Shown here piece by piece: positions 18,938 to 51,680 of a stretch of 64,000 nt of DNA; the stretch's first letter is position 1, and the number at the start of each line of letters is the position of its first letter. The position numbers and the translations under genes are program-made. The notes beneath the pieces were generated by a model. The model saw only the letters and a list, made by a program, of their open reading frames with translations, was not told the DNA's origin and searched no databases. Source of the DNA: Lytechinus pictus (Eukaryota); NCBI RefSeq assembly GCF_037042905.1, contig NC_087245.1, positions 27,654,001-27,718,000 on the forward strand, written 5' to 3'.

Positions 18938-21900
18938 GCGCCCCCTGGTTCGAACATCAATTCAGCACCCCGCCCTAGTTCGAACACCATTCCGGTGCCT
19001 CCCTCGTTCGAGCATTGATAAAGCCCCCTCCCCTAGTTCGAACATCAATCCAGCGCCCCCCCTAGTTTGAACATCAATTCGGTGCCTCCTAGTTCAAACA
19101 TCAATCCGGCGCCCCTAGTTCGAACATCGATTCCGCGCCCTCTAGTTCGAACATCAATTTGGCGCCCTCCCCCCACTTCAAGCATAAATTTTGGGGCCCC
19201 TACTTCAAACATCAATCCGGCGCCCCCTAGTTCGAGCATCGATTCGCCCCCCCCCCTAGCAAAAATTTTACGCACACTAAATCGAACATCAATTTGGCAC
19301 CCCCTAGTTTGAACGTTAATTCGGCACCCCCCCCCCCCCGTTGCGAACATAAATTCGGCACCCCCTAATTCGAACATCGATTCGGCGCCCCCTCTTAGTT
19401 CGAACATCAATTCTGCGCCCCCTAATCGAATATCAATTCGGTGCCCCCTAGTTAGAACATCGATTCGGCGCCCTTCTAGCTCGAACATCAATTTCGCGCC
19501 CCCCTAGTTTGAACCTCAATTCGGCGCCCCTTTGTTCGAACATTAGTTTGGCGCCCCCTAGTTCTAGTTTAATTCAATTCAATTCTTTTTCAAACATCAA
19601 TTCGGCGCCCCATAGTTCGAACATAAATTTGGCGCCCCTACTTCGAACATCAATTCAGCACCCCTCCCTAGTTCGAACACCAGTTCGGTGCCTCCCTACT
19701 TCGTACATTGATTAAGCCCCCTCCCCCCCCCCCCCCCCTAGTTCGAACATCAATTCAGCGTCCCCCTAGCTTGAACACCAATTAGGCGCTCCCTGGTTCA
19801 AACATAAATTCGGTGCCCCCTATATAGTTCAAAAAACAATCCGGCACCCCCTGCTTCAACATCAATCCGGCACCCCCTGCTTCAACATCAATCCGGCACC
19901 CCCTACTTCAAACATCAATCGGCGCCCCCTAGGCCGAACATCAATTCGGCGCCCCCTTCTAGTTCGAACATCAATTGGTGCCCCCTGTAGTTCGAACATA
20001 ATTTAGGCGCCCCCCACTTCAAACATCAATTTCGAGCCCCTGGTTCGAACATCGATTCGGCGCCCCTTTGTTTGAACATCAATTTGGCGCCCCCCTAATT
20101 CGAACATCGACTCAGAGCCCCCGCCTCGCCCCCTAGTTCGAACATTAATTCTGTACCCCCTAGCTCGAACATAAATTCGATGCCCCCAAGTTCAAACATC
20201 AATCCGGCGCCCCCTAGTTCAAACATCAAACGGCACCCCATAGTTCGAACATAAATTCGGCGCCCCCTTGGCCGAACATCAATTCGGACCCCCCTCCCGA
20301 CCTAGTTGGAACATCAATTCGGTGCCCCCCTTCTAGTTCGAACATCAATTTGGCTCCATCCCCAATTCGGTGTCCCCCGGTTCCCCCCCCCCCCCCGTTG
20401 CGAACATAATTTTGGCGCCCCCCCCATCTTCAAACATCAATTTTGAGCCCCTGGTTCGAACATCGATTCGGCTCCCCCTCGTTTGAATATCAATTTGGCG
20501 CCCCCAAATTCAAACATCGATTCGGAGCCCCCGCCTCGCCCCCGAGTTCGAACATCAATTCTGTACCCCCCTAGTTCGAACATGAATTCGGTGCCCCCAA
20601 GTTCAAACATCAATCCGGCACCCAATAGTTCGAACATAAATTCGGCGCCCCCTAGACCGGACATCAATTCAGACCCCCCCCCCGACCTAGTGGGAACATC
20701 GATTTGGTGTCCCCCTCTAGTTCGAACATCAATTTGGCGCCCCCTCCACTTTAAAAATCAATTTTGCACCCACCTAGATCGAACATCGATTCGGCGCAAC
20801 CTCCGAGTTTGAACATCAATTTTGCGCCCCCTAATTCGAACATCATTTCGGCCCCCCTCGTTCTTACATCTATTCAGCGCCCTTCTAGTTTGAACATTAA
20901 TTTAACTGGCGCCCATCTAGTTCGAACCTCATTTTGGCGCCCCTTTGTTTGAACATCACTTTGACGCCCCTCTAGTTCGAACATCAATTTCGTGCCCCCC
21001 TAGTTCGAACCTCAATATGGCACCCCCTTTGTTCAAACATCAATTCGGAGCCGCGACCTAGTTGGAACATCAATTCGGTGCCCCCCTTCTAGTTCGAACA
21101 TCAATTGACCCCCCTATTTCGATCATCGATCCGGCGCCCCCTAGTTCAAACATCGATTCGGAGCCCCCACCTAGTTGGAACATCAATTCGGTGCCCCCCC
21201 TCTAGTTCAAACATCGATTTGGCTCCCCCCTAGTTCGAACCTCAATTCGGCGCCCCCTTTGTTCGAACATTAGTTTGGACCCCCTAGTTCTAGTTTAATT
21301 CAATTCAATTATATTTCAAACATCAATTCAGCACCCCTCCCTAGTTCGAACACCAGTCCGGTGCCTCACTACTTCGTACATTAATTAAGCCCCCCCCCTA
21401 GTTCGAACACCAATTTGGCGTCCGCTAGTTCGAACATCAATTCAGCGTCCCCCTAGCTTGAACACCAATTAGGCGCTCACTAGTTCAAACATCAATCCGG
21501 CGCCCCCTACTTCAAACATCAATCTGGCGCCCCCTACTTCAAACATCAATCAGCGCCCCATAGTTCGAACATAAATTCGGCGCCCCCTAGGCCGAACATC
21601 AATTCGGCGCCCCCTTCTAGTTCGAACATCAATTGGTGCCCCCTGTAGTTCGAACATAATTTAGGCGCCCCCCCCCCCCCCACTTCAAACATCAATTTTG
21701 AGCCACTGGTTCGAAGATCGATTCGGCTCCCCCTTGTTTGAACATCAATTTGGCGCCTCCTAATTCGAACATCCATTCGGAGCCCCCGCCTCGCCCCCTA
21801 GTTCGAACATCAATTCTGAATCCCCCTAGTTCGAACATGAATTCGGTGCCCCCTAATTCAAACATCGATCCCCCCGACCTAGTAGGAACATCAATTCGGT

Positions 21901-24900
21901 GCTCCCCATCTAGTTCGAACATCAATTTGGCGCCCCCCCCAACTTCAAACATCAATTTTGCACCCACCTAGTTCGAACTTAAATTCGGTGTACCCGGTTC
22001 CCCCCCCCCCCCGTTGTAAACATAATTTTGGCGCCCCCCCCCCCCACTTCAAACATCAATTTTGAGCCCCTGGTTCGAACATCGATTCGGCTCCCCCTTG
22101 TTTGAACATCAATTTGGCGCCCCCTAATACAAACATCGATTCGGAGCCCCCACCTCGCCCCCGAGTTCGAACATGAATTCTGTACCCCCCCTAGTTCGAA
22201 CATGAATTCGGTGCCCCCAAGTCCAAACATCATTCCCGCGCCCCCTAGTTCAAACATCAATCGGCACCCAATAGTTCGAACATAAATTCGGCGCCCCCTA
22301 GGCCGAACATCAATTCGGCGCCCCCTTCTAGTTCGAACATCAATTGGTGCCCCCTGTAGTTCGAACATAATTTTGGCGCCATCCCACTTCAAACATCAAT
22401 TTCGAGCCCCTGGTTTGAACTTCGATTCGGCGCCCCTTTGTTTGAACATCAATTTGGTGCCCCCCTAATTCGAACATCGACTCAGAGCCCCCGCCTCGCC
22501 CCCTAGTTCGAACATCAATTCTGTACCCCCTAGCTCGAACATGAATTCGGTGCCCCCAAGTTCAAACATCAATCCCCCCGACCTAGTAGGAACATCAATT
22601 CGGTGCTCCCCCCCTAGTTCGAACTTCAATTTGGCGTCCGCTAGTTCGAACATCAATTCAGCGTCCCCCTAGCTTGAACACCAATTAGGCGCTCCCTAGT
22701 TCAAACATCAATTAGGTGCCCCCTAGTTCAAACATCAATTCGGTGCTCACTAGTTCAAACATCAATCCGGCGCCCCCTACTTCAAACATCAATCAGCGCC
22801 CCTTTGTTTGAACATCACTTTGACGCCCCTCTAGTTCGAACATCAATTTCGTGCCCCCCTAGTTCGAACCTCAATATGGCGCCCCCTTTGTTCAAACATC
22901 AATTCGGAGCCGCGACCTAGTTGGAACATCAATTCGGTGCCCCCCTTCTAGTTCGAACAGCAATTGACCCCCCTATTTCGATCATCGATCCGGCGCCCCC
23001 TAGTTCAAACATCGATTCGGAGCCCCCACCTAGTTGGAACATCAATTCGGTGCCCCCCCTCTAGTTCAAACATCGATTTGGCTCCCCCCTAGTTCGAACA
23101 TCAATTCAGCACCCCTCCCTAGTTCGAACACCAGTCCGGTGCCTCACTACTTCGTACATTAATTAAGCCCCCCCCCCCTAGTTCGAACACCAATTTGGCG
23201 TCCGCTAGTTCGAACATCAATTCAGCGTCCCCCTAGCTTGAACACCAATTAGGCGCTCACTAGTTCAAACATCAATCCGGCGCCCCCTACTTCAAACATC
23301 AATCTGGCGCCCCCTACTTCAAACATCAATCAGCGCCCCATAGTTCGAACATAAATTCGGCGCCCCCTAGGCCGAACATCAATTCGGCGCCCCCTTCTAG
23401 TTCGAACATCAATTGGTGCCCCCTGTAGTTCGAACATAATTTAGGCGCCCCCCCCCCCCCCACTTCAAACATCAATTTTGAGCCCCTGGTTCGAACATCG
23501 ATTCGGCTCCCCCTTGTTTGAACATCAATTTGGCGCCCCCTAATACAAACATCGATTCGGAGCCCCCACCTCGCCCCCGAGTTCGAACATGAATTCTGTA
23601 CCCCCCCCCCCCTAGTTCGAACATGAATTCGGTGCCCCCAAGTCCAAACATCATTCCCGCGCCCCCTAGTTCAAACATCAATCGGCACCCAATAGTTCGA
23701 ACATAAATTCGGCGCCCCCTAGGCCGAACATCAATTCGGCGCCCCCTTCTAGTTCGAACATCAATTGGTGCCCCCTGTAGTTCGAACATAATTTTGGCGC
23801 CATCCCACTTCAAACATCAATTTCGAGCCCCTGGTTTGAACTTCGATTCGGCGCCCCTTTGTTTTAACATCAATTTGGTGCCCCCCTAATTCGAACATCG
23901 ACTCAGAGCCCCCGCCTCGCCCCCTAGTTCGAACATCAATTCTGTACCCCCTAGCTCGAACATGAATTCGGTGCCCCCAAGTTCAAACATCAATCCCCCG
24001 ACCTAGTAGGAACATCAATTCGGTGCTCCCCCCCCCCCCTAGTTCGAACTTCAATTTGGCGTCCGCTAGTTCGAACATCAATTCAGCGTCCCCCTAGCTT
24101 GAACACCAATTAGGCGCTCCCTAGTTCAAACATCAATTAGGTGCCCCCTAGTTCAAACATCAATTCGGTGCTCACTAGTTCAAACATCAATCCGGCGCCC
24201 CCTACTTCAAACATCAATCTGGCGCCCCCTACTTCAAACATCAATCAGCGCCCAATAGTTCGAACATAAATTCGGCGCCCCCTAGGCCGAACATCAATTC
24301 GGCGCCCCCTTCTAGTTCGAACATCAATTGGTGCCCCCTGTAGTTCGAACATAATTTAGGCGCCCCCCCCCCCACTTCAAACATCAATTTTGAGCCACTG
24401 GTTCGAACATCGATTCGGCTCCCCCTTGTTTGAACATCAATTTGGCGCCCCCTAATACAAACATCGATTCGGAGCCCCCGCCTCGCCCCCGAGTTCGAAC
24501 ATGAATTCGGTGCCCTCAAGTTCAAACATCATTCCGGCGCCCCCTAGTTCAAACATCAATCGGCACCCAATAGTTTGAACATAAATTCGGCGCCCCCTAG
24601 GCCGACCATCAATTCGGACCCCCCTTCTAGTTCGAACATCAATTGGTGCCCCCTGTAGTTCGAACATAATTTTGGCGCCATCCCACTTCAAACATCAATT
24701 TCGAGCCCCTGGTTCAAACATCGATTCGGCACCCCTTTGTTTGAACATCAGTTTGGTGCCCCCCTAATCCGAACATCGATTCAGAGCCCCCGCCTCGCCC
24801 CCTAGTTCGAACATCAATTCTGTACCCCCTAGCTCAAACATGAATTCGGTGCCCCCAAGTTCAAACATCGATCCGGAGCCCCCTAGTTCAAACATCAATC

Positions 24901-27900
24901 GGCACCCCATAGTTCGAACATCAATTCGGCGCCCCCTAGGCCGAACATCGATTCGAACACCCCCCCCCCAGACCTAGTTGGAACATCACTTCGGTGCCCC
25001 CCTTCTAGTTCGAACATTTATTTGGCGTCAACCCCCCCCCCCACTTCAAACATCAATTTTGCACCCACCTAGTTCGAACTTCAATTCGGTGTCCCCCGGT
25101 TCACCCCCTCCCCCGTTGCGAACATAATTTTGGCGCCCCCCCCCTCTTCAAACATCAATTTTGAGCCCCTGGTTCGAACATCGATTCGGCTCCCCCTTGT
25201 TTGAACATTAATTTGGCGCCCCCTAATTCAAACATCGATTCGTAGCCCCCGCCTTGCCCCCGAGTTCGAACATCAATTCTGTACCCCTAGCCCGAACATC
25301 AACTCGGACCCCCACCCCCCCCCCCCGACCTAGTGGGAACATCAATCTGGTGCCCCCCCCCCCTAGTTCGAACATCGATTCGGCGCAACCTCTGAGTTTG
25401 AACATCAATTTTGCACCCACCTAGTTCGAACTTCAATTCGGTGTCCCCCGGTTCACCCCCCCCCCCGTTGCGAACATAATTTTGGCGCCCTCCCCCCCCC
25501 ACTCTTCGAACATCAATTTTGAGCCCCTGGTTCGAACATCGATTCGGCTCCCCCTTGTTTGAACATGAATTCGGTGCCCCCAAGTTCAAACATCAATCCG
25601 GCACCCAATAGTTCGAACATAAATTTGGCGCCCCCTAGGCCGAACATCAACTCGGACCCCCCCCCCGACCTAGTGGGAACATCAATTTGGTGCCCCCCCC
25701 CCTAGTTCGAACATCGATTCGGCGCAACCTCTGAGTTTGAACATCAATTTTGCACCCTCTAATTCGAATATCATTTCGGCCCCCCTCGTTCTTACATCTA
25801 TTCAGCGCCCTTCTAGTTTGAACATTAATTTAACTGGCGCCCTTTAGTTCAAACATCAATTCGGAGCCCCCTAGTTCAAACATCAATTCGGAGCCGCGAC
25901 CTAGTTGGAACATCAATTCGGCGCCCCCCTTCTAGTTCGAACATCAATTGGCCTCCCTATTTCGAACATCGATCCGGCGCCCCCTAGTTCAAACATCAAT
26001 TCGGAGCCCCCACCTAGTTGGAACATCAATTCGGTGCCCCCCCCCCCCATCTAGTTCGAACATCAATTTGGATCCCCCCTAGTTCGAACCTCAATTTGGG
26101 ACCCCCTTTGTTCGAACATTCGTTTGGACCCCCTAGTTCTAGTTAAATTAAATTCAATTCTATTTCAAACATCAATTCAGCACCCCTCCCTAGTTCGAAC
26201 ACCAGTCCGGTGCCTTCCTGCTTCGTATATTGATTAAGCCCCCCCCCCCCTAGTTCGAACATCAATTTGGCGTCTGCTAGTTCGAACATCAATTCAGCGT
26301 CCCCCTAGCTTGAACACCAATTAGGCGCTCCCTAGTTCAAACATAAATTCAGTGCCCCCTAGTTCAAACATCAATTCGGTGCTCCCTACTTCAAACATCA
26401 ATCTGGTGACCCCTACTTCAAACATCAATCGGCGCCCCATAGTTCGAACATAAATTCAGCGCCCCCTAGGCCGAACATCAATTCGGCGTCCCCTTCTAGT
26501 TCGAACATCAATTGGTGCCCCCTGTAGTTCAAACATAATTTTGGCGCCCCCCCCCCCCCCACTTCAAACATCAATTTTGAGCCCCTGATTCGAACATCGA
26601 TTCGGCTCCCCCTTGTTTGAACATTTATTTGGCGCCCCCTAATTCGAACATCGATTCGGAGCCCCCGCCTCGCCCCCTAGTTCGAACATTAATTCTGTAC
26701 CCCCCTAGTTCGAACATGAATTCGGTGGCCCCTAGTTTAAACATCGATCCCACCCGACCTAGTTGGAACATCAATTCGGTGCCCCCCTTCTAGTTCGAAC
26801 ATCAATTTGGCGCCCCCCCTTCAAATATCAATTTTGCGCCCCCCCTTCAAACATCAATTTTGCGCCCACCTAGTTCGAACTTCAATTCGGTGTCCCCCGG
26901 TTCTCCCCCCCCCCCGTTGCGAACATAATTTTGGCGCCCCCCCCCCGCCCCACTTCAAACACCAATTTTGATCCCTGGTTCGAACATCGATTAGGCTCCC
27001 CCTTGTTTGAACATGAATTCGGTGCCCCCAAGTTCAAACATCAATCCGGCGCCCCCTAGTTCAAACATCAATCGGCACCCAATAGTTCGAACATAAATTC
27101 GGCGCCCCCTAGGCCGAACATCAATTCGGACCCCCCCCCCGACCTATTGGGAACATCAATTTGGTGCCCCCCTCTAGTTCGAACATCAATTTCGTGCCCC
27201 CCTAGTTCGAACCTCAATATGGCGCCCCCTTTGTTCGAACATCAATTTGGCGCCCCCTAGTTCTAGTTTAATTCAATTCAATTCTATTTCAAACATCAAT
27301 TCGGCGCCCCATAGTTCGAACACTAATTTGGCGCCCCTAGTTCGAACATCAATTTAGCACCCCTCCCTAGTTCGAACACCAGTTCGGTGCCTCCCTACTT
27401 CGTACATTGATTAAGCCCCCCCCCCCCTAGTTCGAACATCAATATGCCGTCTGCTTGTTCGAACATCAATTCAGCGTCCCCCTAGCTTGAACACCAATTA
27501 GGCGCTCCCTAGTTCAAACATAAATTCGGTGCCCCCTAGTTCAAACATCAATTCGGTGCTCCCTAGTTCAAACATCAATCCGGCGCCCCCTACTTCAAAC
27601 ATCAATCTGGTGCCCCCTACTTCAAACATCAATCGGCGCCCCATAGTTCGAACATAAATTCGGCGGCCCCTAGGCCGAACATCAATTCGGCGTCCCCTTC
27701 TACTTCGAACATCAATTGGTGCCCCCCCCTTCAAATATCCCACCCGTTGCGAACATAATTTTGGCGCCCCCCCCCCCCACTTCAAACACCAATTTACATC
27801 CCTGGTTCGAACATCGATTAGGCTCCCCCTTGTTTGAACATGAATTCGGTGCCCCCAAGTTCAAACATCAATCCGGCGCCCCCTAGTTCAAACATCAATC

Positions 27901-30900
27901 GGCACCCAATAGTTCGAACATAAATTCGGCGCCCCCTAGGCCGAACATCAATTCGGACCCCCCCCCCCGACCTATTGGGAACATCAATTTGGTGCCCCCC
28001 TCTAGTTCGAACATCAATTTCGTGCCCCCCTAGTTCGAACCTCAATATGGCGCCCCCTTTGTTCGAACATCAATTTGGCGCCACCTAGTTCTAGTTTAAT
28101 TCAATTCAATTCTATTTCAAACATCAATTCGGCGCCCCATAGTTCGAACACTAATTTGGCGCCCCTAGTTCGAACATCAATTTAGCACCCCTCCCTAGTT
28201 CGAACACCAGTTCGGTGCCTCCCTACTTCGTACATTGATTAAGCCCCCCCCCCCCCTAGTTCGAACATCATTTTGGCGTCCGCTAGTTCGAACATCAATT
28301 CAGCGTCCCCCTAGCTTGAACACCAATTAGGCGCTCCCTAGTTCAAACATCAATCCAGCGCCCCCTACTTCAGACATCAATCCGGTGCCCCCTACTTCAA
28401 ACATCAATCTGGCGCCCCATAGTTCGAACATAAATTCGGCGCCCCCTAGGCCGAACATCAATTCGGCGCCCCCTTCTAGTTCGAACATCAATTGGTGCCC
28501 CCTGTAGTTCGAACATAATTTTGGCGCCCCCCCCCCCCCGCACGTCAAGCATCAATTTTGAGCCCCTGGTTCGAACATCGATTCAGCTCCCCCTTGTTTG
28601 AACATCAATTTGGCACCCCCTAATTCGAACATCGATTCGGAGCCCCCGCCTCGCCCCCTAGTTCGAACATCAATTTGGCGCCCTCTCCACTTTAAACATC
28701 AATTTTGCACCCACCTAGATCGAACATCATTTCGGCCCCCCTCGTTCGAACATCTATTCGGCGCCCTTCTAGTTTCAACATTAATTTAACTGGCGCCCAT
28801 CTAGTTCGAACCTCAATTTGGCGCCCCTTTGTTTGAACATCCTTTGACGCCCCCTAGTTCAATCATCGATCCGGCGCCCCCTAGTTCAAACATCAATTTG
28901 GAGCCCTCTAGTTCAAACATCAATTCGGAGCCGCGACCTAGTTGGAACATCAATTTGGCGCCCCCCCCCTTCTAGTTCGAACATCAATTGGCCACTCTAT
29001 TTCAAATATCAATCCGGCGCCCCCTAGTTCAAACATCAATTCGGAGACCCCACCTAGTTGGAACATCAATTCGGTGCCCCACCCCCTCTAATTCGAACAT
29101 CAATTTGGCTACCCCCTAGTTCGAACCTCAATTCGGCGCCCCCTTTGTTCGAACATTAGTTTGGACCCCCTAGTTCTAGTTAAATTCAATTCAATTCTAT
29201 TTCAAACATCAATTCAGCACCCCTCCCTAGTTCGAACACCAGTCCGGTGCCTCCCTGCTTCGTACATTGATTAAGCCCCCCCCCCCCCTAGTTCGAACAT
29301 CAATTTGGCGTCTGCTAGTTCGAACATCAATTCAGCGTCCCCCTAGCTTGAACACCAATTAGGCGCTCCCTAGTTCAAACATAAATTCAGTGCCCCCTAG
29401 TTCAAACATCAATTCGGTGCTCCCTAGTTCAAACATCAATCCGGCGCCCCCTACTTCAAACATCAATCTGGTGACCCCTACTTCAAACATCAATCGGCGC
29501 CCCATAGTTCGAACATAAATTCAGCGCCCCCTAGGCCGAACATCAATTCGGCGTCCCCTTCTAGTTCGAACATCAATTGGTGCCCCCTGTAGTTCGAACA
29601 TAATTTTGGCGCCCCCCCCCCCACTTCAAACATCAATTTTGAGCCCCTGATTCGAACATCGATTCGGCTCCCCCTTGTTTGAACATTTATTTGGCGCCCC
29701 CTAATTCGAACATCGATTCGGAGCCCCCGCCTCGCCCCCTAGTTCGAACATTAATTCTGTACCCCCCTAGTTCGAACATGAATTCGGTGCCCCCTAGTTT
29801 AAACATCGATCCCACCCGACCTAGTTGGAACATCAATTCGGTGCCCCCCTTCTAGTTCGAACATCAATTTGGCGCCCCCCCTTCAAATATCAATTTTGCG
29901 CCCCCCCCCCCTTCAAACATCAATTTTGCGCCCACCTAGTTCGAACTTCAATTCGGTGTCCCCCGGTTCTCCCCCCCCCCCCCGTTGCGAACATAATTTT
30001 GGCGCCCCCCCCCCACCCCACTTCAAACACCAATTTTGATCCCTGGTTCGAACATCGATTAGGCTCCCCCTTGTTTGAACATGAATTCGGTGCCCCCAAG
30101 TTCAAACATCAATCCGGCGCCCCCTAGTTCAAACATCAATCGGCACCCAATAGTTCGAACATAAATTCTGCGCCCCCTAGGCCGAACATCAATTCGGACC
30201 CCCCCCCCCGACCTATTGGGAACATCAATTTGGTGCCCCCCTCTAGTTCGAACATCAATTTCGTGCCCCCCTAGTTCGAACCTCAATATGGCGCCCCCTT
30301 TGTTCGAACATCAATTTGGCGCCCCCTAGTTCTAGTTTAATTCAATTCAATTCTATTTCAAACATCAATTCGGCGCCCCATAGTTCGAACACTAATTTGG
30401 CGCCCCTAGTTCGAACATCAATTTAGCACCCCTCCCTAGTTCGAACACCAGTTCGGTGCCTCCCTACTTCGTACATTGATTAAGCCCCCCCCCCCCTAGT
30501 TCGAACATCAATATGCCGTCTGCTTGTTCGAACATCAATTCAGCGTCCCCCTAGCTTGAACACCAATTAGGCGCTCCCTAGTTCAAACATAAATTCGGTG
30601 CCCCCTAGTTCAAACACCAATTCGGTGCTCCCTAGTTCAAACATCAATCCGGCGCCCCCTACTTCAAACATCAATCTGGTGCCCCCTACTTCAAACATCA
30701 ATCGGCGCCCCATAGTTCGAACATAAATTCGGCGGCCCCTAGGCCGAACATCAATTCGGCGTCCCCTTCTACTTCGAACATCAATTGGTGCCCCCTGTAG
30801 TTCGAACATAATTTTGGCGCCCCCCCACTTCAAACATAAATTTTGAGCCCCTGATTCGAACATCGATTCGGCTCCCCCTTGTTTGAACATTTATTTGGCG

Positions 30901-32125
30901 CCCCCTAATTCGAACATCGATTCGGAGCCCCCGCCTCGCCCCCTAGTTCGAACATGAATTCGGTGCCCCCTAGTTTAAACATCGATCCCACCCGACCTAG
31001 TTGGAACATCAATTCGGTGCCCCCCTTCTAGTTCGAACATCAATTTGGCGCCCTCCCCCCCACTTCAAATATCAATTTTGCGCCCCCCCCCCACTTCAAA
31101 CATCAATTTTGCGCCCACCTAGTTCGAACTTCAATTCGGTGTCCCCCGGTTCTCCCCCCCCCCGTTGCGAACATAATTTTGGCGCCCCCCCCCCACTTCA
31201 AACACCAATTTACATCCCTGGTTCGAACATCGATTAGGCTCCCCCTTGTTTGAACATGAATTCGGTGCCCCCAAGTTCAAACATCAATCCGGCGCCCCCT
31301 AGTTCAAACATCAATCGGCACCCAATAGTTCGAACATAAATTCGGCGCCCCCTAGGCCGAACATCAATTCGGACCCCCCCCCGACCTATTGGGAACATCA
31401 ATTTGGTGCCCCCCTCTAGTTCGAACATCAATTTCGTGCCCCCCTAGTTCGAACCTCAATATGGCGCCCCCTTTGTTCGAACATCAATTTGGCGCCCCCT
31501 AGTTCTAGTTTAATTCAATTCAATTCTATTTCAAACATCAATTCGGCGCCCCATAGTTCGAACACTAATTTGGCGCCCCTAGTTCGAACATCAATTTAGC
31601 ACCCCTCCCTAGTTCGAACACCAGTTCGGTGCCTCCCTACTTCGTACATTGATTAAGCCTCCCCCCCCCCTAGTTCGAACATCAATTTGGCGTCCAATAG
31701 TTCGAACATCAATACAGCGTCCCCCTAGCTTGAACACCAATTAGGCGCTCCCTAGTTCAAATATCAATCCGGCGCCCCCTACTTCAAACATCAATCCGGC
31801 GCCCCCTAGTTCAAACATCAATCGGCACCCCATAGTTCGAACATAAATTCGGCGCCCCCTAGGCCGAACATCAATTCGGCGCCCCTTCTAGTTCGAACAT
31901 CAATTGGTGCCCCCTGTAGTTCGAACATAATTTTGGTGCCCCCCCCCCTGCACTTCAAGCATCAATTTTGAGCCCATGGATCGAACATCGATTCAGCTCC
32001 CCCTTGTTTGAACATCAATTTGGCGCCCCCTAATTCAAACATCAATTCGGAGCCGCCTGACCTCGCCCCCGAGTTCGAACATCAATTCTGTACCCCCCTA
32101 GTTCGAACATCAATTGGTGCCCCCT
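18938..32125. repeat. ~13.2-kb tandem array of a ~30-bp minisatellite (consensus ~CTAGTTCGAACATCAATTCGGCGCCCCC) with kb-scale higher-order duplications
   Basis: Continuous variant monomers, roughly 430 by length/30. Diagnostic variants recur, e.g. ttctagtttaattcaattcaatt and cgtacattgattaagcccc. Identical spurious ORFs at 27818-28045 and 30059-30286. Confidence 0.97.
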
Positions 32126-34565: not shown

Positions 34566-35959
34566 TACATATATTAGTATATTATAAATTTACATATATA
34601 GGCAGTTATTTTAAACGAGTTCTAAATGTTTTTTCTCATATTGCTAAGCATAATTAATTGGACATTGTATTTCTTAGAAGTGTAGGTGTGTCATAGATAA
34701 TGCATTCACGGCAAAGCTTTATTTTCGCGCATGTATTCAGCAAACTAATGAATGTCATCTGTCCACTTGTATATTCGTTTGATTTTTTTTTTATTATATC
34801 AAATTATATTGATTACATTTGTTCCCCGAAAATTGAATAAAACATGATTGACTACTGCTTTTATCAAAAGCATCGTTATTGCTGAAATTCGATATGTAAT
34901 AATGAGTCTTTTCGAAATAAGAAATAATTATTATTTCATGTAATGAAATATTTATAAATTCATTAATTAAATAAGAAGAAGAAAAAGTAGGGACACGAAC
35001 GGAAGACCCATTCAGATGTGTCATTCTATATTTTATGTTTGTAAGAGTATTGTAAGCTTCTGCCCGAGAGATTAATTCCTTTGACCATGGACCTAGTAGG
35101 TCCATGCTGTGACTGAAGAGCCTTTCGAGCCCCTGTCCCTGAAATGTTTATTCCTTGTTTAAAGTAATACATAAAAAGACAAATGAAAAGCATTGAAATT
35201 TCATCAAAATTGTACTAGGAATAAAAAAAAATTATTAGGTTTTACCATTATTTTCGTTGAAATTATGAATTATTAATAATGACGACATAAATCTATTTTT
35301 CACAAAATATTGCTTAACTTAAAGTTTAATTACTTTGTTATTGATATCAGATTTTGATGAAATTTTAAGCTTTTTCGTAATTAATTTTACTTAATTTACT
35401 TATTTATTAATTTCAGCCCGGTGTGTATCCCTTTTAAAGCTGTAGGCTAACAGATCGTATAGTCAAATTGTTTTTCAAGTATTTCAAAGAATGTCAGGGA
35501 GATGGTTTCCTGTGAATGATGAGCCTACTGGGCCAGTCCCTTAAACTGTAGGAGAACGTTCCGTTCTCCTACAGTTTAAGGGGCGTTCCGCCCAGTCAGA
35601 TTGTATTTTTTTTTAAGTATTTGTAATAATATTGTTAATAAATTATTTCTGTCTGGGAGATGGTGTCCTTCCTGTGAATGATCAGCCTACTGGGCCAGCC
35701 CCTTAAACTGTAGGAGAACGGAATGCCTAGTCAGATTGTATTTCCCCCCCCCCCCCCCGTTTTTTTTTTTTTTTAATAATTTTTTTGTAAGAATATTGTT
35801 AATTTCTGTCTGGGAGATGGTTTCCTGTGAATGATGAGCCTACTGGGCTAGCCCCTTAAAGTGTAGGAGAACGGAACGCCCAGTCAGATTATGTTTAAAT
35901 TATATGTATTTATATTTTTTTAAATTAATTTCTGTCTTCGAGATGATGTCTTATGAATA

Positions 35960-37052
35960 ATGAACTTCCTCAAATTAAATGTTTCTAAAACTGAATTCAT
36001 TGTACTATGTCGGAAAAACCAATTAAATGAAAATCTATCCAACGTAAAACTCAATGTATGTGATAATGAAATTGCACTATCCTCTAAAGTTAAGAATCTT
36101 GGCATATGTTTTGACTCGTGCTTTACACTCTCATCTCATGTCAGTAATACTGTACGTACCTGTAATTTCCATCTTAAGAATCTGTGGCGCATTAGAAGAT
36201 TTATTAATGAAAAAAATTGCCATCATGCAGTTTACTTTCTCGACTTGACTATTGTAACAGTCTCTTTTCAGTTCTTTGTGTTAAAGATCAGAAAAAACTT
36301 AAAAGTGTTCAGAATCGTGCCGCACGTTTAGTGTTTTCAGTTGGTCGCAATGTACAATGTCGATCTCCTTTGATTAGGGAACTCCCATTGGCTCCCTTTT
36401 TCTCAACGTGTCATGTTCAAACTTTGTATGTACATTTATAAATTGGTTAACAGTACCGGTCATTCATATCTTGTAAACACAATTGCTCGTTACACACCTG
36501 CTCGTAATCTACGTTCCCTGAATAATGATACCACCAAACTTGTTAATCCGAGAACAAACTTCTCCATAGCAGAAAAACGTTTTAGTATAGCTGGATCTAG
36601 ACTTTGGAACACACTCCCCTCTACCGTCCGAACAACACCGACCATATCATCTTTCAAACGACAACTCAAGTCATATCTTTTTCCAAATATCTAGTTTTCT
36701 ATTTATTAATATGTATTTGTTTTGATGATTTTTGCTATCACTGTTTGGTTTGACTTGGCTAACCCATCTGGGGCCTGGTGACCTCAAGTGCTATACTAGA
36801 GCTTCTGTGAATGATGTGCTGACCGGGCTTGTCCCTTAAATTGTTGGTGAACGAAGCAGCAAGCAAGAGGCCACCAGGCCTCATCTGGCGCAGTTGAGAG
36901 CACCTATAGTTGATGCAATTTAATGTATATAATTCTATACTTTTTTGTTACTTAAGATTTATATTTATATTTTATTTCTGACAATTGTAAGCGCTGTGAT
37001 ACTTTTCGTGTATAGCGGATATAAATGACCGTTATTATTATTATTGTTATTA
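35960..37052 (+). mobile_element. 5'-truncated, frameshifted L2/Crack-clade LINE (C-terminal ORF2, 3' UTR and (TTA)n tail)
   Basis: Motifs LKLNVSKTEFI, VKNLGICFDS, SRLDYCNSL, LKSVQNRAARL, RFSIAGSRLWNTLP and FKRQLKSYLF across three frames (35960-36694). Terminal tgtaagcgctgtgatac...gtatagcggatataaat followed by (tta)n. Confidence 0.92.
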
Positions 37053-37719
37053 CTGGGCTAGCCCCTAAGATTTATAGGAGAACAGCGCTCCCAGTCACGC
37101 AATTTAGTTTTTATGTTTGTAAAAAAAAAAAATCTGGGAAATTATATCCTATGAATGATGAACAAAATGGGCTAGTTCTTTAGACTGTAGGAGAACTGAA
37201 CACCAAGTCAGATTACTTTTAAATGTAAAGTATTTTAAAGAATATTGCTTAATTTCTGTCTGGGAAATGGGGTCATGTGAATGATTGGCAAACTGGACTA
37301 TACATTTAACGTCTAGGAGAACGGAACGCCCAGTAGGCGTAAAGATTGTACAGTCTAAATATTTTTTCAAGAATGTAATTAATTTCTGTCTGGGAGAAGG
37401 TGTCCTGTGAATGGTGAGCCTACTGGGTTTGTCCGTTAAATGATAGGAGAAGGGAACGCCGCCCAGATCGACATATATATTTTTAAAAAGAATTATTATC
37501 ATTAAGTATTTGTAAGAAAACTGTTAATTTTTGTCTCGTAGGTGGTGTCCTTCGGATTATGAGCCTTCTGGGCTAGACCCTTAAATGGCAGGAGAACAGA
37601 ACACCCAGTCAGACCTTCTTCTTATTATCATTATTTTAAGTAGGCCTATTTGTATACTATTTTGTCTGGTATAGATGTTGTCCTGTGGATTACCAATTGG
37701 CTTAGCCCTATAAGTATTA

Positions 37720-37960
37720 CACTTTAAACAAATATTGAGTAAATTGTAACCAGCATGATGGTAATTATGTGTCCAGCCAAATTTGGGCAGTATTTTACCC
37801 AGTACAGGAAGCATATTGTCCACTGAGGTAAAAAAAAAAAAAAAAGCAGCAATTACGTTAGAATGGGCAAAATTTTTATCACACTGGATAAAAATGCCCA
37901 ATGTTGGTTGGAAATATAATTACCCTCACGGAGCATTTTTTCCCAATATTTTTTAGAGTG
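37720..37960. mobile_element. MITE with CACT...AGTG termini, TA-flanked, inserted in a hairpin-motif copy
   Basis: TA|CACTTTAAACAAATATTG ... CAATATTTTTTAGAGTG|TA. The interrupted motif resumes as taggaaaaaggaacgccc. Confidence 0.7.
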
Positions 37961-38072
37961 TATAGGAAAAAGGAACGCCCATCAATCAGATAATATTTCT
38001 TTATTTTTGTCTGTAAGAATTTTGTTATTTTTCGTCTGGGAGATGTCCGATAAAACAGGAACCTACAGGGCT

Positions 38073-38212
38073 TTGGGTATTCCAGGTTGAAATTGATACG
38101 ACAGTGAAAATTTCATCAAAATGAGACAAGGAGTAAATGAAGTTTTTAATTTAGCAAAAATTTGGTGGAGCCCATGCGTGTCTTGCGCAAGGTGATGATG
38201 CATCTTCCCACT

Positions 38213-38250
<38 letters not shown>

Positions 38251-38630
38251 ATATTGAAAAAAAAAAACAGGATTAATTTACTGCGTTGATTAGTGTGAAA
38301 ATGTTATTGCTAAAATTTCATTTGGACCAAGTGGAATATGAAGTGCATGTGGTCATGATTTCATTTTTTTTGTTTCATATAATTGAATAATTATGAATTT
38401 ATTAAATAAGATGGAAAGTAGGGACCCGACATCATCGACACACCTTATGCATATCAATCGTGTTAATACATGTAGCTCCATGAATATATTTTCTCCCAAA
38501 TATTGCTAATCTTTTTAATTTAATAACTTTGTTGTTGTTATCAGATATTGTTGAAATTATAGCGTTTTTCTTCTTGATTGATTTTACTTTATTTATTATT
38601 TTATCTTCAGCCCGAAAGAGACCCCTTTAA
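38073..38630. mobile_element. Degenerate Kolobok-like element inserted in a hairpin-motif copy (related remnant at ~35140-35437)
   Basis: gggtattccaggttgaaatt... left end and cttcagcccgaaagagacccct|ttaa right end. Shares internal sequence (tttcatcaaaat, aaaatattgct, atcagat.ttg.tgaaatt) with 35140-35437. Confidence 0.55.
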
Positions 38631-40514
38631 CCTAGCTGTAGGCGAACAGGGGCCCGTTTCATAAAGAATTGTTGTAACTTTGCCCTTATGACAATTAACT
38701 ACCATGTTAACAGGGCTCAGCGGTCAATCAAAATCAAAACTTCCATCACGGTTGCCATAATGGCAATGTTACCATACTTGTAAAACTCTTTATGATCGTA
38801 ATTAGTGAAATAATTGTCAAAGTATTTATAAGGATGTAATAAACATCTGTCTGCAAGATGGTGACATGTAAAAGATCTGCCTACTGGGCTAGCCCTTTAA
38901 GTTGTAGGAGAATAAATCGCCCAATCCGATGTTTGTTTTAATTTAATTATTCTGTCTGTGAGATTATGTCCAGCAAGCATGTTGGCATGGTTTTGGGAAT
39001 ATTAATTGTGTGTATTGTGGTGGAGAGTCAGTGCACATAGATTTGCTTTAGTTATTCACAAATTCTCCCTTATGATCATGATGCCATTAGTAGTAAAAGA
39101 AATCTTGCCCGAGCAGTGGGGACAAGAGAGCAATATATTGAGCTGATTTTTTTTTTGGGCGGTGGCACCCCACATCGAGGGTTATGTATAGTATACGGAG
39201 TACATAGAAATGCCCATAATTATCATCTATCGCATTTGGTCGTGACAGTAAAGACCTGCATTTTATGGCTGTTTTAATGGTTTTAATTTTAAACTGTGGT
39301 TGCAATCATGGGCTGAACGTGCACATTAGAGCGAGCGAGGCGAGCTAGTAAATTAGTTGGAAGACTGAATGGTGTCCAAACCGTGTTGCTTTTTCTTAAC
39401 CCCCCCCCCCAAAAAAAAAAAAAAAAAATCAACAGTCGCAAATATATTCCATGAAAACTAAATTTCTTGGGTTGATACAGGAGATATGATAATGCAAGAT
39501 GTTATCATACTCTAGGAATCAGACCACAATAAATAAACTCCCTGAAATGAATAAAATAGCTCATTGATGCAAATGAAATGGAAAATATTGCTGAAAGGGA
39601 TGAGTTTGAACAGTCATTATGATTATATTCACAGATGGCGCACTATTCAAAATTGTAAACAAAAGTTCCTTCATCACATTTTCAATACTTATTTTTAGGT
39701 GTCTTGCTAATATACACGTTAATTTAAGTCTCATTTTAATAAAATTGGCAAATCATAAAGTTATGAGGTATAATATTGTTCCTGTCTTTTAGTAATTTGA
39801 TCAACGTCAACAGTCAGTGGCATAATATGTCAAGCATTTTGAGGGGGCCAGAAATGCATGGTGTATGGGGCAACATTTCAAGAATTATTCAGATACTAAT
39901 ATCATATTTCATCCCCCTCCATTTTTATTGGTTGTTAGAATTTCGGGGGTCTGTGTCCCTGGACCCGGCCCCATCTGTAAGTAAGGATCATTTTTATTCA
40001 ATTGTATATTTTCACTTGAGGATTCCTCAATAGGGCCTATATAGTTTAATTCTTATTGTCTTTTCGAGTTTCAAGATTAACTGTATATATCAGGAGTATC
40101 CCAACGGTGGGAGCCCTCTGTACGTCTACACCGGATGGACAGGACGATGTCTGGAATGTGTCACAAGGGACAGGATCCGGCAACCTGTAAATACCTTAGT
40201 CTTAATTTTCATAATGACATTAATAAGAAGAAAACACGAAAAATATACTTTGAAAAAGGGGGAGAGAGTAAATCGGATTTCGAGCGCCGGCGGCCACATC
40301 GAGGAAAAGGAAAGGAAAGAAGGAGACAGCATAAACCAGCAATGAAACTGGACATTTTTTTAATAGGACATTGTCATTAATGATAAATTAGCCTTAATTG
40401 GTTTGACATGATCAGGTTAATATTTAGATGCATATTTATCTTTTTCTTGATTAAATAATAGTATACCCACAGTTTGACCATAAGCCTATTTTGCATGAAG
40501 CTGACCTCAACTTC

Positions 40515-46944: not shown

Positions 46945-49900
46945 ATTAGGACATGCTTTTAAATTGTTTTGAGGGGCGAACGAGTGAAAATATATTTTGT
47001 ATACCTTTCGTTATGAACTCCCGTTCTCCATGACGAAATATAATTGACGAAAGGAAAGTAAAACAGAAAAGAAGTCACAAACATCTCAGAATAGTTTGCG
47101 ATCTATCAGGACATGTTTTAAAATTGATTTTAGGTGTCAACAAGTTAAAATATATTTGATATACCTTTCGTTGTGATCCCTTGTTCTCCGTTAAGAAATA
47201 TTAAATACGTCTTTTCTCGACGATGTTGGAAACGTAAATAAAACAGAATAGAAGTCACAAACATCTCAGATGGGTGTGCGATCTATCACAACATGTTTTA
47301 AAGCTGTTTTTAGGGGTCAACAAGTTAAAATAGATTTGATATACCTTCCGTTATTATCCCCTGTTCTCCGTAAAGAAATATTAAAGATGCATTTTCTCGA
47401 CAAAGTTGGAAACGTCGATAAAACAAAATAGAAGTTGGTAGCATCTCATATTTATTGGTGATACATATTTTTCGAGGGGTCAACAAGTTAAAATATATTT
47501 GATATACCTTTCGTTTTGATCCCTTGTTGTCCGTTAAAAATATTAAATACGTCTTTTCTCGACGATGTTGGAAACGTAAATAAAACAGAATAGAAGTCAC
47601 AAACATCTCAGATGGGTGTGCGATCTATCAGGACATGTTTTAAAATTGTTTTTAGGTGTCAACAAGTTAAATTATATTTGATATACCTTTCGTTGTGATC
47701 CCTTGTTCTCCGTTAAGAAATATTAAATACGTCTTTTCTCGACGATGTTGGAAACGTAGATAAAACAAAATAGAAGTCACAAACATCTCAGATGGGTGTG
47801 CGATCTATCAGGACATGTTTTAAAATTGTTTTTAGGTGTCAACAAGTTAAAATAGATTTGATATACCTTTCGTTATGATCCCTTGTTCTCCGTTAAGAAA
47901 TATTAAATACGTCTTTTCTCGACGATGTTGGAAACGTAAATAAAACAGAATAGAAGTCACAAACATCTCAAATTGGTGTGCGATCTATCAGGACATGTTT
48001 TAAAATTGTTTTTAGGTGTCAACAAGTTAAATTATATTTGATATACCTTTCGTTGTGATCCCTTGTTCTCCGTTAAGAGATATTAAATGCGTCTTTTCTC
48101 GACGATGTTGGAAACGTAGATAAAACAAAATAGAAGTCACAAACATCTCAGATGGGTGTGCGATCTATCAGGACATGTTTTAAAATTGTTTTTAGATGTC
48201 AACAAGTTAAAATAGATTTGATATACCGTTCGTTATAATCCCTTGTTCTCCGTTAAGAAATAATAAATACGTCTTTTCTCGACGATGTTGGAAACGTAAA
48301 TAAAACAGAATAGAAGTCACAAACATCTCAAATGGGTGTGCGATCTATCAGGACATGTTTTAAAATTGTTTTTAGGGGTCAACAAGTTAAAATAGAGTTG
48401 ATATACCTTTCGTTATGATCCCCTGTTATCCGTTAAGAAATATTAAAGATGCATTTTCTCGACAAAGTTGGAAACGTAGATAAAACAAAATAAAAGTCAC
48501 AAACATCTCAGATGGGTGTGCGATCTATCAGGGCATGTTTTAAAATTGTTTTTAGGTGTCAACAAGTTAAATTATATTTGATATACCTTTCGTTGTGATC
48601 CCTTGTTCTCCGTTAAGAGATATTAAATGCGTCTTTTCTCGACGATGTTGGAAACGTAGATAAAACAAAATAGAAGTCACAAATATCTCAGATGGGTGTG
48701 CGATCTATCAGGACATGTTTTAAAATTGTTTTTAGGGGTCAACAAGTTAAAATAGAGTTGATATACCTTTCGTTATGATCCCCTGTTATCCGTTAAGAAA
48801 TATTAAAGATGCATTTTCTCGACAAAGTTGGAAACGTAGATAAAACAAAATAAAAGTCACAAACATCTCAGATGGGTGTGCGATCTATCAGGGCATGTTT
48901 TAAAATTGTTTTTAGGTGTCAACAAGTTAAATTATATTTGATATACCTTTCGTTGTGATCCCTTGTTCTCCGTTAAGAGATATTAAATGCGTCTTTTCTC
49001 GACGATGTTGGAAACGTAGATAAAACAAAATAGAAGTCACAAACATCTCAAATTGGTGTGCGATCTATCAGGACATGTTTTAAAATTGTTTTTAGGTGTC
49101 AACAAGTTAAATTATATTTGATATACCTTTCGTTGTGATCCCTTGTTCTCCGTTAAGAGATATTAAATGCGTCTTTTCTCGACGATGTTGGAAACGTAGA
49201 TAAAACAAAATAGAAGTCACAAACATCTCAGATGGGTGTGCGATCTATCAGGACATGTTTTAAAATTGTTTTTAGGTGTCAACAAGTTAAATTATATTTG
49301 ATATACCTTTCGTTGTGATCCCTTGTTCTCCGTTAAGAGATATTAAATGCGTCTTTTCTCGACGATGTTGGAAACGTAGATAAAACAAAATAGAAGTCAC
49401 AAACATCTCAGATGGGTGTGCGATCTATCAGGACATGTTTTAAAATTGTTTTTAGGGGTCAACAAGTTAAAATAGAGTTGATATACCTTTCGTTATGATC
49501 CCCTGTTATCCGTTAAGAAATATTAAAGATGCATTTTCTCGACAAAGTTGGAAACGTAGATAAAACAAAATAAAAGTCACAAACATCTCAGATGGGTGTG
49601 CGATCTATCAGGACATGTTTTAAAATTGTTTTTAGGTGTCAACAAGTTAAATTATATTTGATATACCTTTCGTTGTGATCCCTTGTTCTCCGTTAAGAGA
49701 TATTAAATGCGTCTTTTCTTGACGATGTTGGAAACGTAAATAAAACAGAATAGAAGTAAAAAACATCTCAGATGGGTGTGCGATCTATCAGGACATGTTT
49801 TAAAATTGTTTTTAGGGGTCAACAAGTTAAAATAGAGTTGATATACCTTTCGTTATGATCCCCTGTTATCCGTTAAGAAATATTAAAGATGCATTTTCTC

Positions 49901-51680
49901 GACAAAGTTGGAAACGTAGATAAAACAAAATAAAAGTCACAAACATCTCAGATGGGTGTGCGATCTATCAGGACATGTTTTAAAATTGTTTTTAGGTGTC
50001 AACAAGTTAAATTATATTTGATATACCTTTCGTTGTGATCCCTTGTTCTCCGTTAAGAGATATTAAATGCGTCTTTTCTCGACGATGTTGGAAACGTAGA
50101 TAAAACAAAATAGAAGTCACAAACATCTCAGATGGGTGTGCGATCTATCAGGACATGTTTTAAAATTGTTTTTAGGTGTCAACAAGTTAAATTATATTTG
50201 ATATACCTTTCGTTGTGATCCCTTGTTCTCCGTTAAGAGATATTAAATGCGTCTTTTCTCGACGATGTTGGAAACGTAGATAAAACAAAATAGAAGTCAC
50301 AAACATCTCAGATGGGTGTGCGATCTATCAGGACATGTTTTAAAATTGTTTTTAGGGGTCAACAAGTTAAAATAGAGTTGATATACCTTTCGTTATGATC
50401 CCCTGTTATCCGTTAAGAAATATTAAAGATGCATTTTCTCGACAAAGTTGGAAACGTAGATAAAACAAAATAAAAGTCACAAACATCTCAGATGGGTGTG
50501 CGATCTATCAGGACATGTTTTAAAATTGTTTTTAGGTGTCAACAAGTTAAATTATATTTGATATACCTTTCGTTGTGATCCCTTGTTCTCCGTTAAGAGA
50601 TATTAAATGCGTCTTTTCTTGACGATGTTGGAAACGTAAATAAAACAGAATAGAAGTAAAAAACATCTCAGATGGGTGTGCGATCTATCAGGACATGTTT
50701 TAAAATTGTTTTTAGGGGTCAACAAGTTAAAATAGAGTTGATATACCTTTCGTTATGATCCCCTGTTATCCGTTAAGAAATATTAAAGATGCATTTTCTC
50801 GACAAAGTTGGAAACGTAGATAAAACAAAATAAAAGTCACAAACATCTCAGATGGGTGTGCGATCTATCAGGACATGTTTTAAAATTGTTTTTAGGTGTC
50901 AACAAGTTAAATTATATTTGATATACCTTTCGTTGTGATCCCTTGTTCTCCGTTAAGAGATATTAAATGCGTCTTTTCTTGACGATGTTGGAAACGTAAA
51001 TAAAACAGAATAGAAGTAAAAAACATCTCAGATGGGTGTGCGATCTATCAGGACATGTTTTAAAATTGTTTTTAGGGGTCAACAAGTTAAAATAGAGTTG
51101 ATATACCTTTCGTTATGATCCCCTGTTATCCGTTAAGAAATATTAAAGATGCATTTTCTCGACAAAGTTGGAAACGTAGATAAAACAAAATAAAAGTCAC
51201 AAACATCTCAGATGGGTGTGCGATCTATCAGGACATGTTTTAAAATTGTTTTTAGGTGTCAACAAGTTAAATTATATTTGATATACCTTTCGTTGTGATC
51301 CCTTGTTCTCCGTTAAGAGATATTAAATGCGTCTTTTCTCGACGATGTTGGAAACGTAGATAAAACAGAATAGAAGTAAAAAACATCTCAGATGGGTGTG
51401 CGATCTATCAGGACATGTTTTAAAAATTGTTTTTAGGGGTCAACAAGACAAAATAGATTTGATATGCCTTTCGTTATGATCCCTTAATTGTTCTCCGTTA
51501 AGAAATATTAAAGATGCATTTTCTCGACAAGTTGGAAACGTAGATAAGACAAAATAGAAGTCAGTTGGTAGCCTTTCATATTTGCGATCTATCAGGACAT
51601 CTTTTAAGATTGTTTGAAGGTGTCAACAGGTTAAAATATATTATATATGCATTTCGTTACGATACCTTGTTTTCCGTAGA
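46945..51680. repeat. 180-bp satellite array, ~26 copies, two main variants
   Basis: Exact 180-bp period from ~47520 to ~51420, with degenerate edge monomers. Confidence 0.97.

What the first reader, a model, noticed from the sequence alone, without database searches (positions are those of the whole stretch)
35493..38975. Tandem cluster of an unassigned ~85-nt structured motif with conserved internal loops
Seen: each copy can fold as outer stem TCTG-T-CTGGG/CCCAG-T-CAGA, stem GTTTCC/GGAAC, an asymmetric loop TGTGAATGATGAG opposite AGAAC, stem CCTAC/GTAGG, and a capping hairpin GGGCTAGCCC followed by TTAAA. Spacers are AT-rich and variable while the motif is retained. Inference: this resembles a functional RNA module (tandem G.A or kink-turn-like loop, C-box-like ATGATGA) amplified in tandem. 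I cannot match it to hammerhead, HDV-like, twister, pistol, SECIS or snoRNA consensus.
Basis: partly seen in the sequence, partly recalled or inferred. Interest (0 to 1): 0.7.

Follow-up and report, generated by a model that had tools for sequence, protein, structure and literature searches.

The report
Hairpin module shared by LINE, repeat
A roughly 60-base hairpin module sits both in a very abundant tandem repeat and in the tail of a jumping gene (a LINE) that landed inside that repeat; the two versions differ in ways that keep the hairpin, which hints at an undescribed RNA element of mobile DNA, although the copies at this spot are decaying and silent.

Summary
The array is real: 8 full-length units plus about 8 split or partial ones (35.03-38.98 kb), AT-rich spacers, no Rfam match. 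Only 2 of the 8 keep all four proposed stems; the others decay without compensation, and the locus shows no RNA in the two poly(A)-type runs laid. A 5'-truncated LINE (35966-37052) is inserted into one unit, and its 3' UTR carries the same 61-nt core (36799-36859) with a different outer stem. Against the best array unit, 7 stem changes keep all 12 pairs (p 0.001-0.004 with the structure fixed, 0.03-0.05 with it free) and the loops are mostly kept. DNA contigs show the array unit at roughly thousands of copies and the LINE's hairpin at hundreds, several-fold above the LINE's ORF end or tail. Hammerhead, twister-sister-like, C/D snoRNA and SECIS membership fail. Best reading (0.45): a structured, probably protein-binding RNA module of retroposon 3' regions, also amplified as a tandem family that is dead here. 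Rivals: DNA-level foldback repeat (0.3), unrecognised ribozyme (0.1). The covariation rests on one pair of families.

The parts
35805..35888 (+). Best array unit: outer stem, P1, 13-nt/5-nt asymmetric loop, P2, cap hairpin, A-rich bulge; core 35819-35879
   Evidence: highest summed contig depth (130,446)
35648..35735 (+). Array unit with all stems intact (4-nt insertion 5' of P1)
35490..35600 (+). Array unit carrying an inverted copy of 28 nt of the unit (35557-35584)
35931..35965 (+). Left half of the unit split by the LINE
35966..36694 (+). 5'-truncated, frameshifted C-terminal part of a LINE ORF2 (stop 36692-36694)
   Evidence: relative P0001 89% identical with RVT_1; 5' junction from contig X17-1
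36732..36918 (+). Long imperfect hairpin in the LINE 3' UTR; coincides with the stretch of raised copy number
   Evidence: site depths
36772..36880 (+). Inner part of the UTR hairpin, closed by a 14-bp inverted repeat unrelated in sequence to the array's outer stem
   Evidence: (I24)
36799..36859 (+). LINE copy of the 61-nt core with pair-preserving stem changes
   Evidence: (E 1.4e-7)
36985..37052 (+). LINE terminal stem-loop (36985-37024) and TTA-repeat tail (37032-37052)
   Evidence: same layout in related LINE ends
37053..37097 (+). Right half of the unit split by the LINE
37129..37613 (+). Four decayed array units (37129-37212, 37255-37338, 37385-37471, 37530-37613)
37640..38075 (+). Partial units (about 37660-37720, 37960-37990, 38031-38075), broken by an unrelated foldback insert at about 37722-37960
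   Evidence: (I1)
38846..38975 (+). Decayed unit 38846-38929 and the 5' fragment of a further unit (38951-38975)
35034..35470 (+).
38605..38660 (+). Older internally deleted unit, in a local duplicate of the 35.3-35.45 kb stretch

Best explanation
The 61-nt core is a structured RNA module of retroposon 3' regions. In the LINE transcript it sits at the tip of a roughly 185-nt UTR hairpin, about 125 nt upstream of the terminal stem-loop. It folds as P1, a purine-rich asymmetric loop, P2 extended by two non-canonical pairs, and a small capped hairpin with an A-rich bulge (fold: predicted from two sequences). The loop most likely binds a protein, either a host kink-turn-type binder or a LINE protein, and so helps RNP assembly or RNA stability (inferred, not shown). 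A separate 130-160-nt unit with the same core and its own closing stem was amplified to thousands of copies (shown roughly). It may have spread as a non-autonomous passenger of retro-machinery, or at DNA level from a retroposon-derived seed (inferred). The copies in this window are old, decay neutrally and are not transcribed in the runs laid (shown). A LINE carrying the module later inserted into one of them (shown); targeting is possible but not shown.
For: Homology of the two versions: E 1.4e-7, 40 of 49 nt. Unconstrained two-sequence folding recovers the structure, and 3 or more double changes arise in 131 and 185 of 4000 null pairs. The P2 changes give G-U pairs on the LINE's sense strand, which palindrome correction of DNA would not make (inference); plus -7.4 versus minus -5.45 kcal/mol. 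Columns 19 and 50 both change A to U, turning tandem A-G/G-A oppositions into U-G/G-U (pairing inferred). The outer stems differ wholly in sequence yet both close the core. Three near-fixed family differences (36781, 36900, 36905) all improve the UTR hairpin. Depth is about 12,700 over the hairpin against 1,064 at the ORF end and 2,337 near the tail, so the hairpin is shared with more elements than this LINE. A contig of another organism (X17) spans ORF, module and tail with 41 differences. L2-clade 3' tails are known protein-recognition RNAs (PMC4176376, passages).
Against: The covariation comes from one pair of sequences. The energy-based free null is not significant (177 of 1500), nor is the 9-row score (88 of 500). 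Single copies do not favour the fold, and 36772-36895 folds better on the minus strand (z -3.13 versus -0.74). The module is absent from 71 of 71 loci of related LINEs (best E 0.18; many lack the 3' end) and from 37 of 37 genomes behind them, so it is not a general LINE requirement. The array units carry no terminal stem-loop or TTA tail, and no array ends or target duplications were resolved. Array-type sequence is 66- to 250-fold rarer in RNA per DNA depth than two neighbouring inserts. No binding partner was tested.
Confidence: 0.45

Rival explanations
1. A DNA-level foldback repeat. The LINE captured a roughly 185-bp MITE-like element in its UTR, and a relative of that element expanded in tandem as the core repeat of a MITE/Helentron-type element or a small satellite. 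The stems are inverted repeats kept by template switching, with no RNA function.
For: The high-copy stretch coincides with a long inverted repeat. Template-switch-like palindromes occur in this array (35557-35584; 35082-35104). Unit size is like the 156-bp palindrome-bearing core repeats of clam DTC84 (PMC3879986, passages). Array sequence is rare in RNA, and local decay is neutral.
Against: The centre is conserved while the outer arms differ completely between the families, the reverse of what a transposase would require (established knowledge). The P2 changes yield G-U, not Watson-Crick pairs. No ACGG-type microsatellite was reported at the array, and no clear target duplication flanks the UTR hairpin.
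Confidence: 0.3
2. An unrecognised self-cleaving ribozyme, hammerhead-derived or of a new class. The array would be a retrozyme-like element processed into monomers and partnered with a LINE rather than a Penelope element.
For: Short dispersed tandem arrays of low GC with a conserved motif and variable spacers resemble non-LTR retrozymes (PMC7229834, passages). The long loop strand differs from the hammerhead block CUGAnGA by one base and the short strand from GAAA by one. Older partial units show the hammerhead base at these places (35113 and 38644). Array sequence is depleted from poly(A)-type RNA.
Against: No hammerhead core with stem II anywhere in the window. 0 of 9 cores have GAAA, there is no room for stem I, and the LINE copy also changes the last base of the block. 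No pile-up of read ends (table 6). The one abundant transcript sharing 36717-36887 has similar read numbers on both sides of the core (140/173 and 154/149), which efficient cleavage would not be expected to leave; the library is unstranded, so this is weak. Units (126-162 nt) are shorter than the 220-350-nt monomers in the passages read.
Confidence: 0.1
3. A host small-RNA gene family in clusters, which this LINE targets and from which it picked up the module, as target-specific retrotransposons of multicopy RNA genes do.
For: The LINE sits in the same orientation inside the motif it carries. With about 20-80 LINE ends genome-wide (rough) such an insertion in a 2.5-kb array is unlikely by chance (my estimate: below 1 in 1000 for a genome near 1 Gb, a size that is recalled). 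T-runs follow the units. Small RNAs are lost in the libraries laid.
Against: One insertion only. Local units decay neutrally. No tRNA or Rfam family. Array-type sequence was not among the 2 records laid from organism E.
Confidence: 0.08

Closest known systems
Tandem repeats derived from LINE 3' regions (common cetacean satellite from the L1 3' UTR; chicken HinfI repeat with CR1; as tabulated in PMC9659126)
   Same: A tandem family that shares sequence with the 3' UTR of a LINE.
   Different: Here only a 60-nt core is shared, inside unrelated closing stems, and the differences preserve base pairs.
Animal non-LTR retrozymes (PMC7229834; bioRxiv 10.64898/2026.07.22.740005)
   Same: Low-GC tandem arrays at high copy number with one conserved structured motif per unit that is shared with an autonomous retroelement.
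   Different: No hammerhead; shorter unit; the partner is an APE/RT LINE, not a Penelope-like element; no processing shown.
Conserved central domains of SINE superfamilies (CORE, V/Vhc, Deu, Nin, MESC, Snail; PMC4758252)
   Same: A structured non-coding module shared between different retroposon families; the Vhc subdomain is a hairpin with an internal loop kept in different contexts.
   Different: No tRNA head in the window; found in a LINE 3' UTR and a tandem repeat; sequence identity to these domains could not be tested (no Repbase, Dfam or SINEBase).
L2-clade 3'-tail stem-loop bound by ORF2p (PMC4176376)
   Same: A LINE 3'-UTR RNA structure with exchangeable stems and conserved loop.
   Different: The terminal stem-loop is present separately (36985-37024); the module is an extra upstream element not seen in related LINEs.
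Tandem-repeat-containing MITEs (pearl, DTC84; PMC3879986)
   Same: Short arrays of about 150-bp units with a conserved palindromic part.
   Different: No microsatellite module or cassette ends found; the core is shared with a LINE UTR.

Membership tests
Hammerhead ribozyme (any permutation) | CUGAnGA block between stems I and II | tested here: not met
   None of 9 cores has it (long loop strands listed); no core with stem II in the window; block definition from PMC10085705 section 13
Hammerhead ribozyme (any permutation) | GAAA block between stems II and III | tested here: not met
   0 of 9 cores
Hammerhead ribozyme (any permutation) | Stem I flanking the cleavage site | tested here: not met
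   Only 5 nt lie between P1 and the block; no complementary strand in the unit (inspection)
Hammerhead ribozyme (any permutation) | Self-cleavage | not testable with these tools
   No end pile-ups in unstranded cDNA reads, which is not a cleavage assay
Twister-sister-like (LINE-1-core/OR4K15) ribozyme | Conserved CA in the longer strand of the internal loop | tested here: not met
   CA in 1 of 9 cores, as a private change; feature from PMC11620745 passages
Rfam families (HDV-like, twister, pistol, hatchet, SECIS, snoRNAs, riboswitches) | Score at the family's gathering threshold | tested here: not met
   0 matches in the window; best E 0.12, 1.4 and 2.6 in the permissive scans
Box C/D snoRNA | Box C RUGAUGA | tested here: inconclusive
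   Intact in 3 of 9 cores; the LINE copy differs at the last base
Box C/D snoRNA | Box D CUGA near the 3' end | tested here: not met
   CUGA downstream in 2 of 9, neither at a usable terminal place
Kink-turn | Tandem sheared G-A pairs after a 3-nt bulge next to a canonical helix (definition recalled) | tested here: inconclusive
   One register keeps GA/GA in both versions but needs a 4-nt bulge and a further 3-nt bulge; the other register is lost in the LINE copy
Non-LTR retrozyme | Type I hammerhead in each tandem unit | tested here: not met
   definition in bioRxiv 10.64898/2026.07.22.740005
Non-LTR retrozyme | Short tandem arrays, low GC, many copies | tested here: met
Non-LTR retrozyme | Monomeric and circular RNAs | not testable with these tools
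   Only poly(A)-type paired reads were laid; no back-joints listed in RNA
APE-type LINE (for 35966-37052) | ORF2 with RT, endonuclease in full-length relatives, terminal stem-loop and short-repeat tail | tested here: met
   P0001 89% identical, RVT_1 E 2.3e-32; relatives carry PF03372/PF14529; tail
L2/CR1 group (for the LINE) | RT phylogeny against named clade references | not tested
   No named references available; the label is recalled from the tail layout and C-terminal motifs
pearl/DTC84 tandem-repeat MITE | Flanking modules with inverted repeats, ACGG-type microsatellite, AA target duplication | tested here: not met
   Tandem Repeats Finder lists only a 24-nt AT-rich repeat and a TA run in 34.5-39.5 kb; no cassette ends seen; the array's ends are decayed, so the test is weak
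SINE conserved central domain | Homology to a described domain within a tRNA/5S/7SL-headed SINE | not testable with these tools
   No repeat library; ARAGORN finds 0 genes in the window

The most novel reading that the evidence does not exclude
The core is an undescribed functional RNA motif, catalytic or protein-binding, that defines a LINE-partnered counterpart of retrozymes: thousands of short tandem units carry it, the LINE carries it under structural selection in its 3' UTR, and the LINE inserts preferentially into the units.
Probability: 0.15. Interest if true: 0.85.

Novelty: new variant of a known kind. Interest (0 to 1): 0.45.

Why it matters
Structured RNA motifs that animal retroelements keep under selection have turned out to be ribozymes or protein-recognition elements (established knowledge). 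This one matches no Rfam family, appears in two unrelated contexts with pair-preserving changes, and is small enough for a one-day cleavage or probing assay. If it is functional, it would add a new RNA motif and show LINE-linked tandem arrays parallel to Penelope-linked retrozymes. If not, it is a clear case of a foldback repeat that mimics covariation.

Tried and rejected
No whole genome was held, so copy numbers come from summed contig depth, which the tool says is not a copy number; read them as orders of magnitude. Pattern scans: viral contigs 0. Metagenome collection 1 hit, a chance match in bacterial DNA without the stems. A stem-free pattern in viral contigs gave 5 hits, all antisense to reading frames with 2-3 of 5 P1 and 1-2 of 5 P2 pairs. 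LINE protein searches in viral contigs and plasmids found nothing. Model R1 found no motif in 71 related LINE loci or in 37 genomes behind them (only up to 147 candidates scored per genome). No RNA holder was listed; 4 of 24 runs were laid. Rejected: C/D snoRNA, SECIS, HDV-like, twister, pistol, twister-sister-like, and hammerhead in any permutation. Recalled word-level resemblances to the fluoride riboswitch and to SRP RNA got no Rfam support even at E 10. The weak hit to a plant-virus pseudoknot (E 1.4) is chance level. 0 of 8 longer ORFs elsewhere in the window have a Pfam match, so no host-gene context was found. Earlier notes by sequence, near this place and in relatives: none. Literature searches showed no description of this motif in listings; Repbase, Dfam and subscription papers were not searchable, and the supplement of PMC10085705 (26 HRIMA motifs) was listed but not read.
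Full report
SETTING. The window is AT-rich eukaryotic DNA full of repeats, and no whole genome is held. Earlier unchecked notes call the genome a sea urchin; I did not test this.

OBSERVATION. nhmmer with the best unit finds 9 full-length matches on the + strand (E 8e-26 to 1.4e-7) and several partial ones. Eight are array units, starting at 35490, 35648, 35805, 37129, 37255, 37385, 37530 and 38846. About eight split or partial units extend the array from 35.03 to 38.98 kb. Adjacent units start 126-162 nt apart. Spacers are 71-95% AT with pairwise identity 0.52 (shuffled 0.50), against 0.73 for cores. Differences from the local majority fall on 35 of 208 stem columns and 35 of 248 loop columns, and for 6 of 8 units pairing is kept no better than by random change (p 0.45-0.89). 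So the motif is real, but the local copies decay neutrally.

THE LINE. 35966-36694 encodes the frameshifted C-terminus of a LINE ORF2. A database protein 89% identical to it carries RVT_1, and relatives carry an APE-type endonuclease. A 3' UTR, a terminal stem-loop and a TTA tail follow to 37052, the same layout as in related LINE ends. The L2/CR1-group label is recalled, not tested. The LINE splits an array unit: the left half ends at 35965 and the right half starts at 37053, with about 3 nt of target lost and no duplication. A 1,273-nt contig from another organism covers 35966-37024 with 41 differences and continues upstream in LINE sequence, so ORF, UTR and tail belong to one real family.

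THE SHARED CORE. The ninth match (36799-36859) is in this UTR and aligns without gaps to the array cores. Against the best array unit, 8 of 24 stem columns and 5 of 31 loop columns differ. Random changes do this in 277 or 1203 of 300,000 trials, depending on transition bias. Folding the two sequences without constraint recovers the structure and adds two pairs across the loop. Three or more double changes arise in 131 or 185 of 4000 null pairs, but the energy-based null is not significant (177 of 1500), and neither is the score over all 9 rows (88 of 500). Columns 19 and 50 both change from A to U, which would turn tandem purine oppositions next to P2 into U-G/G-U wobbles (inference). The LINE core is closed by a 14-bp inverted repeat unrelated to the array's outer stem, inside a hairpin spanning 36732-36918 (whole-UTR z -2.32). 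Against this reading: single copies do not prefer the fold (pair probabilities 0-0.36), and the LINE module folds better on the minus strand by z-score.

FAMILY DATA. In DNA contigs of run X2 laid at 80% likeness, summed depth is 130,446 on the best unit against about 30-60 in unique bins, and listed joints link units through varied T-rich spacers. This is roughly 3,000-5,000 copies (not a true copy number). Over the LINE, depth is 1,064 at 36626, 2,664 at 36731, 12,724 at 36781, 12,650 at 36900, 3,616 at 36956 and 2,337 at 37007. The hairpin is thus several-fold commoner than the LINE's ORF end or tail. The three near-fixed differences listed in it all improve pairing, and none is listed inside the core; only 40 of 357 rows were shown, so this is suggestive that the window copy equals the family majority. 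In two unstranded RNA runs the unique bins of the array have zero depth, and array-type reads are 66- to 250-fold rarer per DNA depth than two unrelated inserts. The depth over the LINE UTR comes mostly from one other locus sharing 36717-36887, with balanced read numbers on both sides of the core and no end pile-ups. Small RNAs would be missed.

BREADTH. Model R1 finds nothing in 71 loci of LINEs with 30-49% RT identity, recovered as apparent animal contigs in prokaryotic genome records, or in 37 genomes behind them. Pattern scans of viral and metagenome collections gave only chance hits. The module looks lineage-restricted.

MECHANISM. Stems that change while loops stay, in two unrelated closing stems and in sense orientation in a LINE UTR, fit best with an RNA element whose loop is read by a protein (0.45). 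Shown: homology, the insertion, abundance, local decay, pair-preserving change between two families. Inferred: folding in vivo, protein binding, and how the array spread. The main rival is a DNA foldback repeat with arms corrected by template switching (0.3). It explains the long hairpin and the Watson-Crick changes but not the G-U changes or the conserved centre. A ribozyme is tempting because both loop strands are one base from hammerhead blocks, but three defining features fail (0.1). A targeted host RNA cluster rests on one insertion (0.08).

PAPERS SEEN. Passages only: PMC4758252, PMC7229834, PMC3879986, PMC11620745, PMC4176376, PMC9659126. First part of the text: bioRxiv 10.64898/2026.07.22.740005 (1 of 5) and PMC4209133 (1 of 4). 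PMC10085705: abstract and sections 12, 13, 15 and 17; its supplement was not read and could hold similar motifs. Eight searches showed no description in their listings; repeat libraries could not be searched.

VERDICT. A real, unannotated module shared by a LINE 3' UTR and a high-copy tandem family, with modest evidence of structural conservation and no evidence of function at this locus. New variant of a known kind; interest 0.45.

Noticed in passing
window 35538-35584: An inverted copy of 28 nt of the unit makes a perfect 21-bp palindrome inside one array copy, a likely template-switch product.
   Followed up: partly
window 35082-35104: A palindromic insert of about 22 nt inside an old array unit, flanked by a near-repeat of 6 nt.
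   Followed up: no
window 36717-36887: One abundant transcript in runs X21 and X22 shares exactly this stretch of the LINE UTR and diverges on both sides (loose-end agreement 0.97-1.0).
   Followed up: partly
window 36765-36770 and 36882-36887: A 6-nt direct repeat flanks the 14-bp inverted repeat of the UTR module; it could be a target duplication or part of the shared domain.
   Followed up: partly
window 35172-35389, 37722-37960, 38667-38787: Unrelated inserts split array units; the first two are foldback elements, and the last two are high-copy and common in RNA.
   Followed up: partly
window 35286-35453 and 38479-38649: A local duplication (74% identical) that includes an internally deleted array unit.
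   Followed up: partly
window 18938-32124 and 46945-51677: A 13-kb array of a 27-nt C-rich unit and a 4.7-kb array of a 180-nt unit; further arrays at 42.0-42.8 kb and 45.06-46.06 kb.
   Followed up: no
L002-L072: 71 loci in prokaryotic genome records encode animal-type LINE reverse transcriptases, apparently host contamination.
   Followed up: partly
L060 downstream of 3552: Its LINE 3' UTR shares a 16-nt word with the left foot of this LINE's UTR hairpin (about 36731-36746); may be chance.
   Followed up: no
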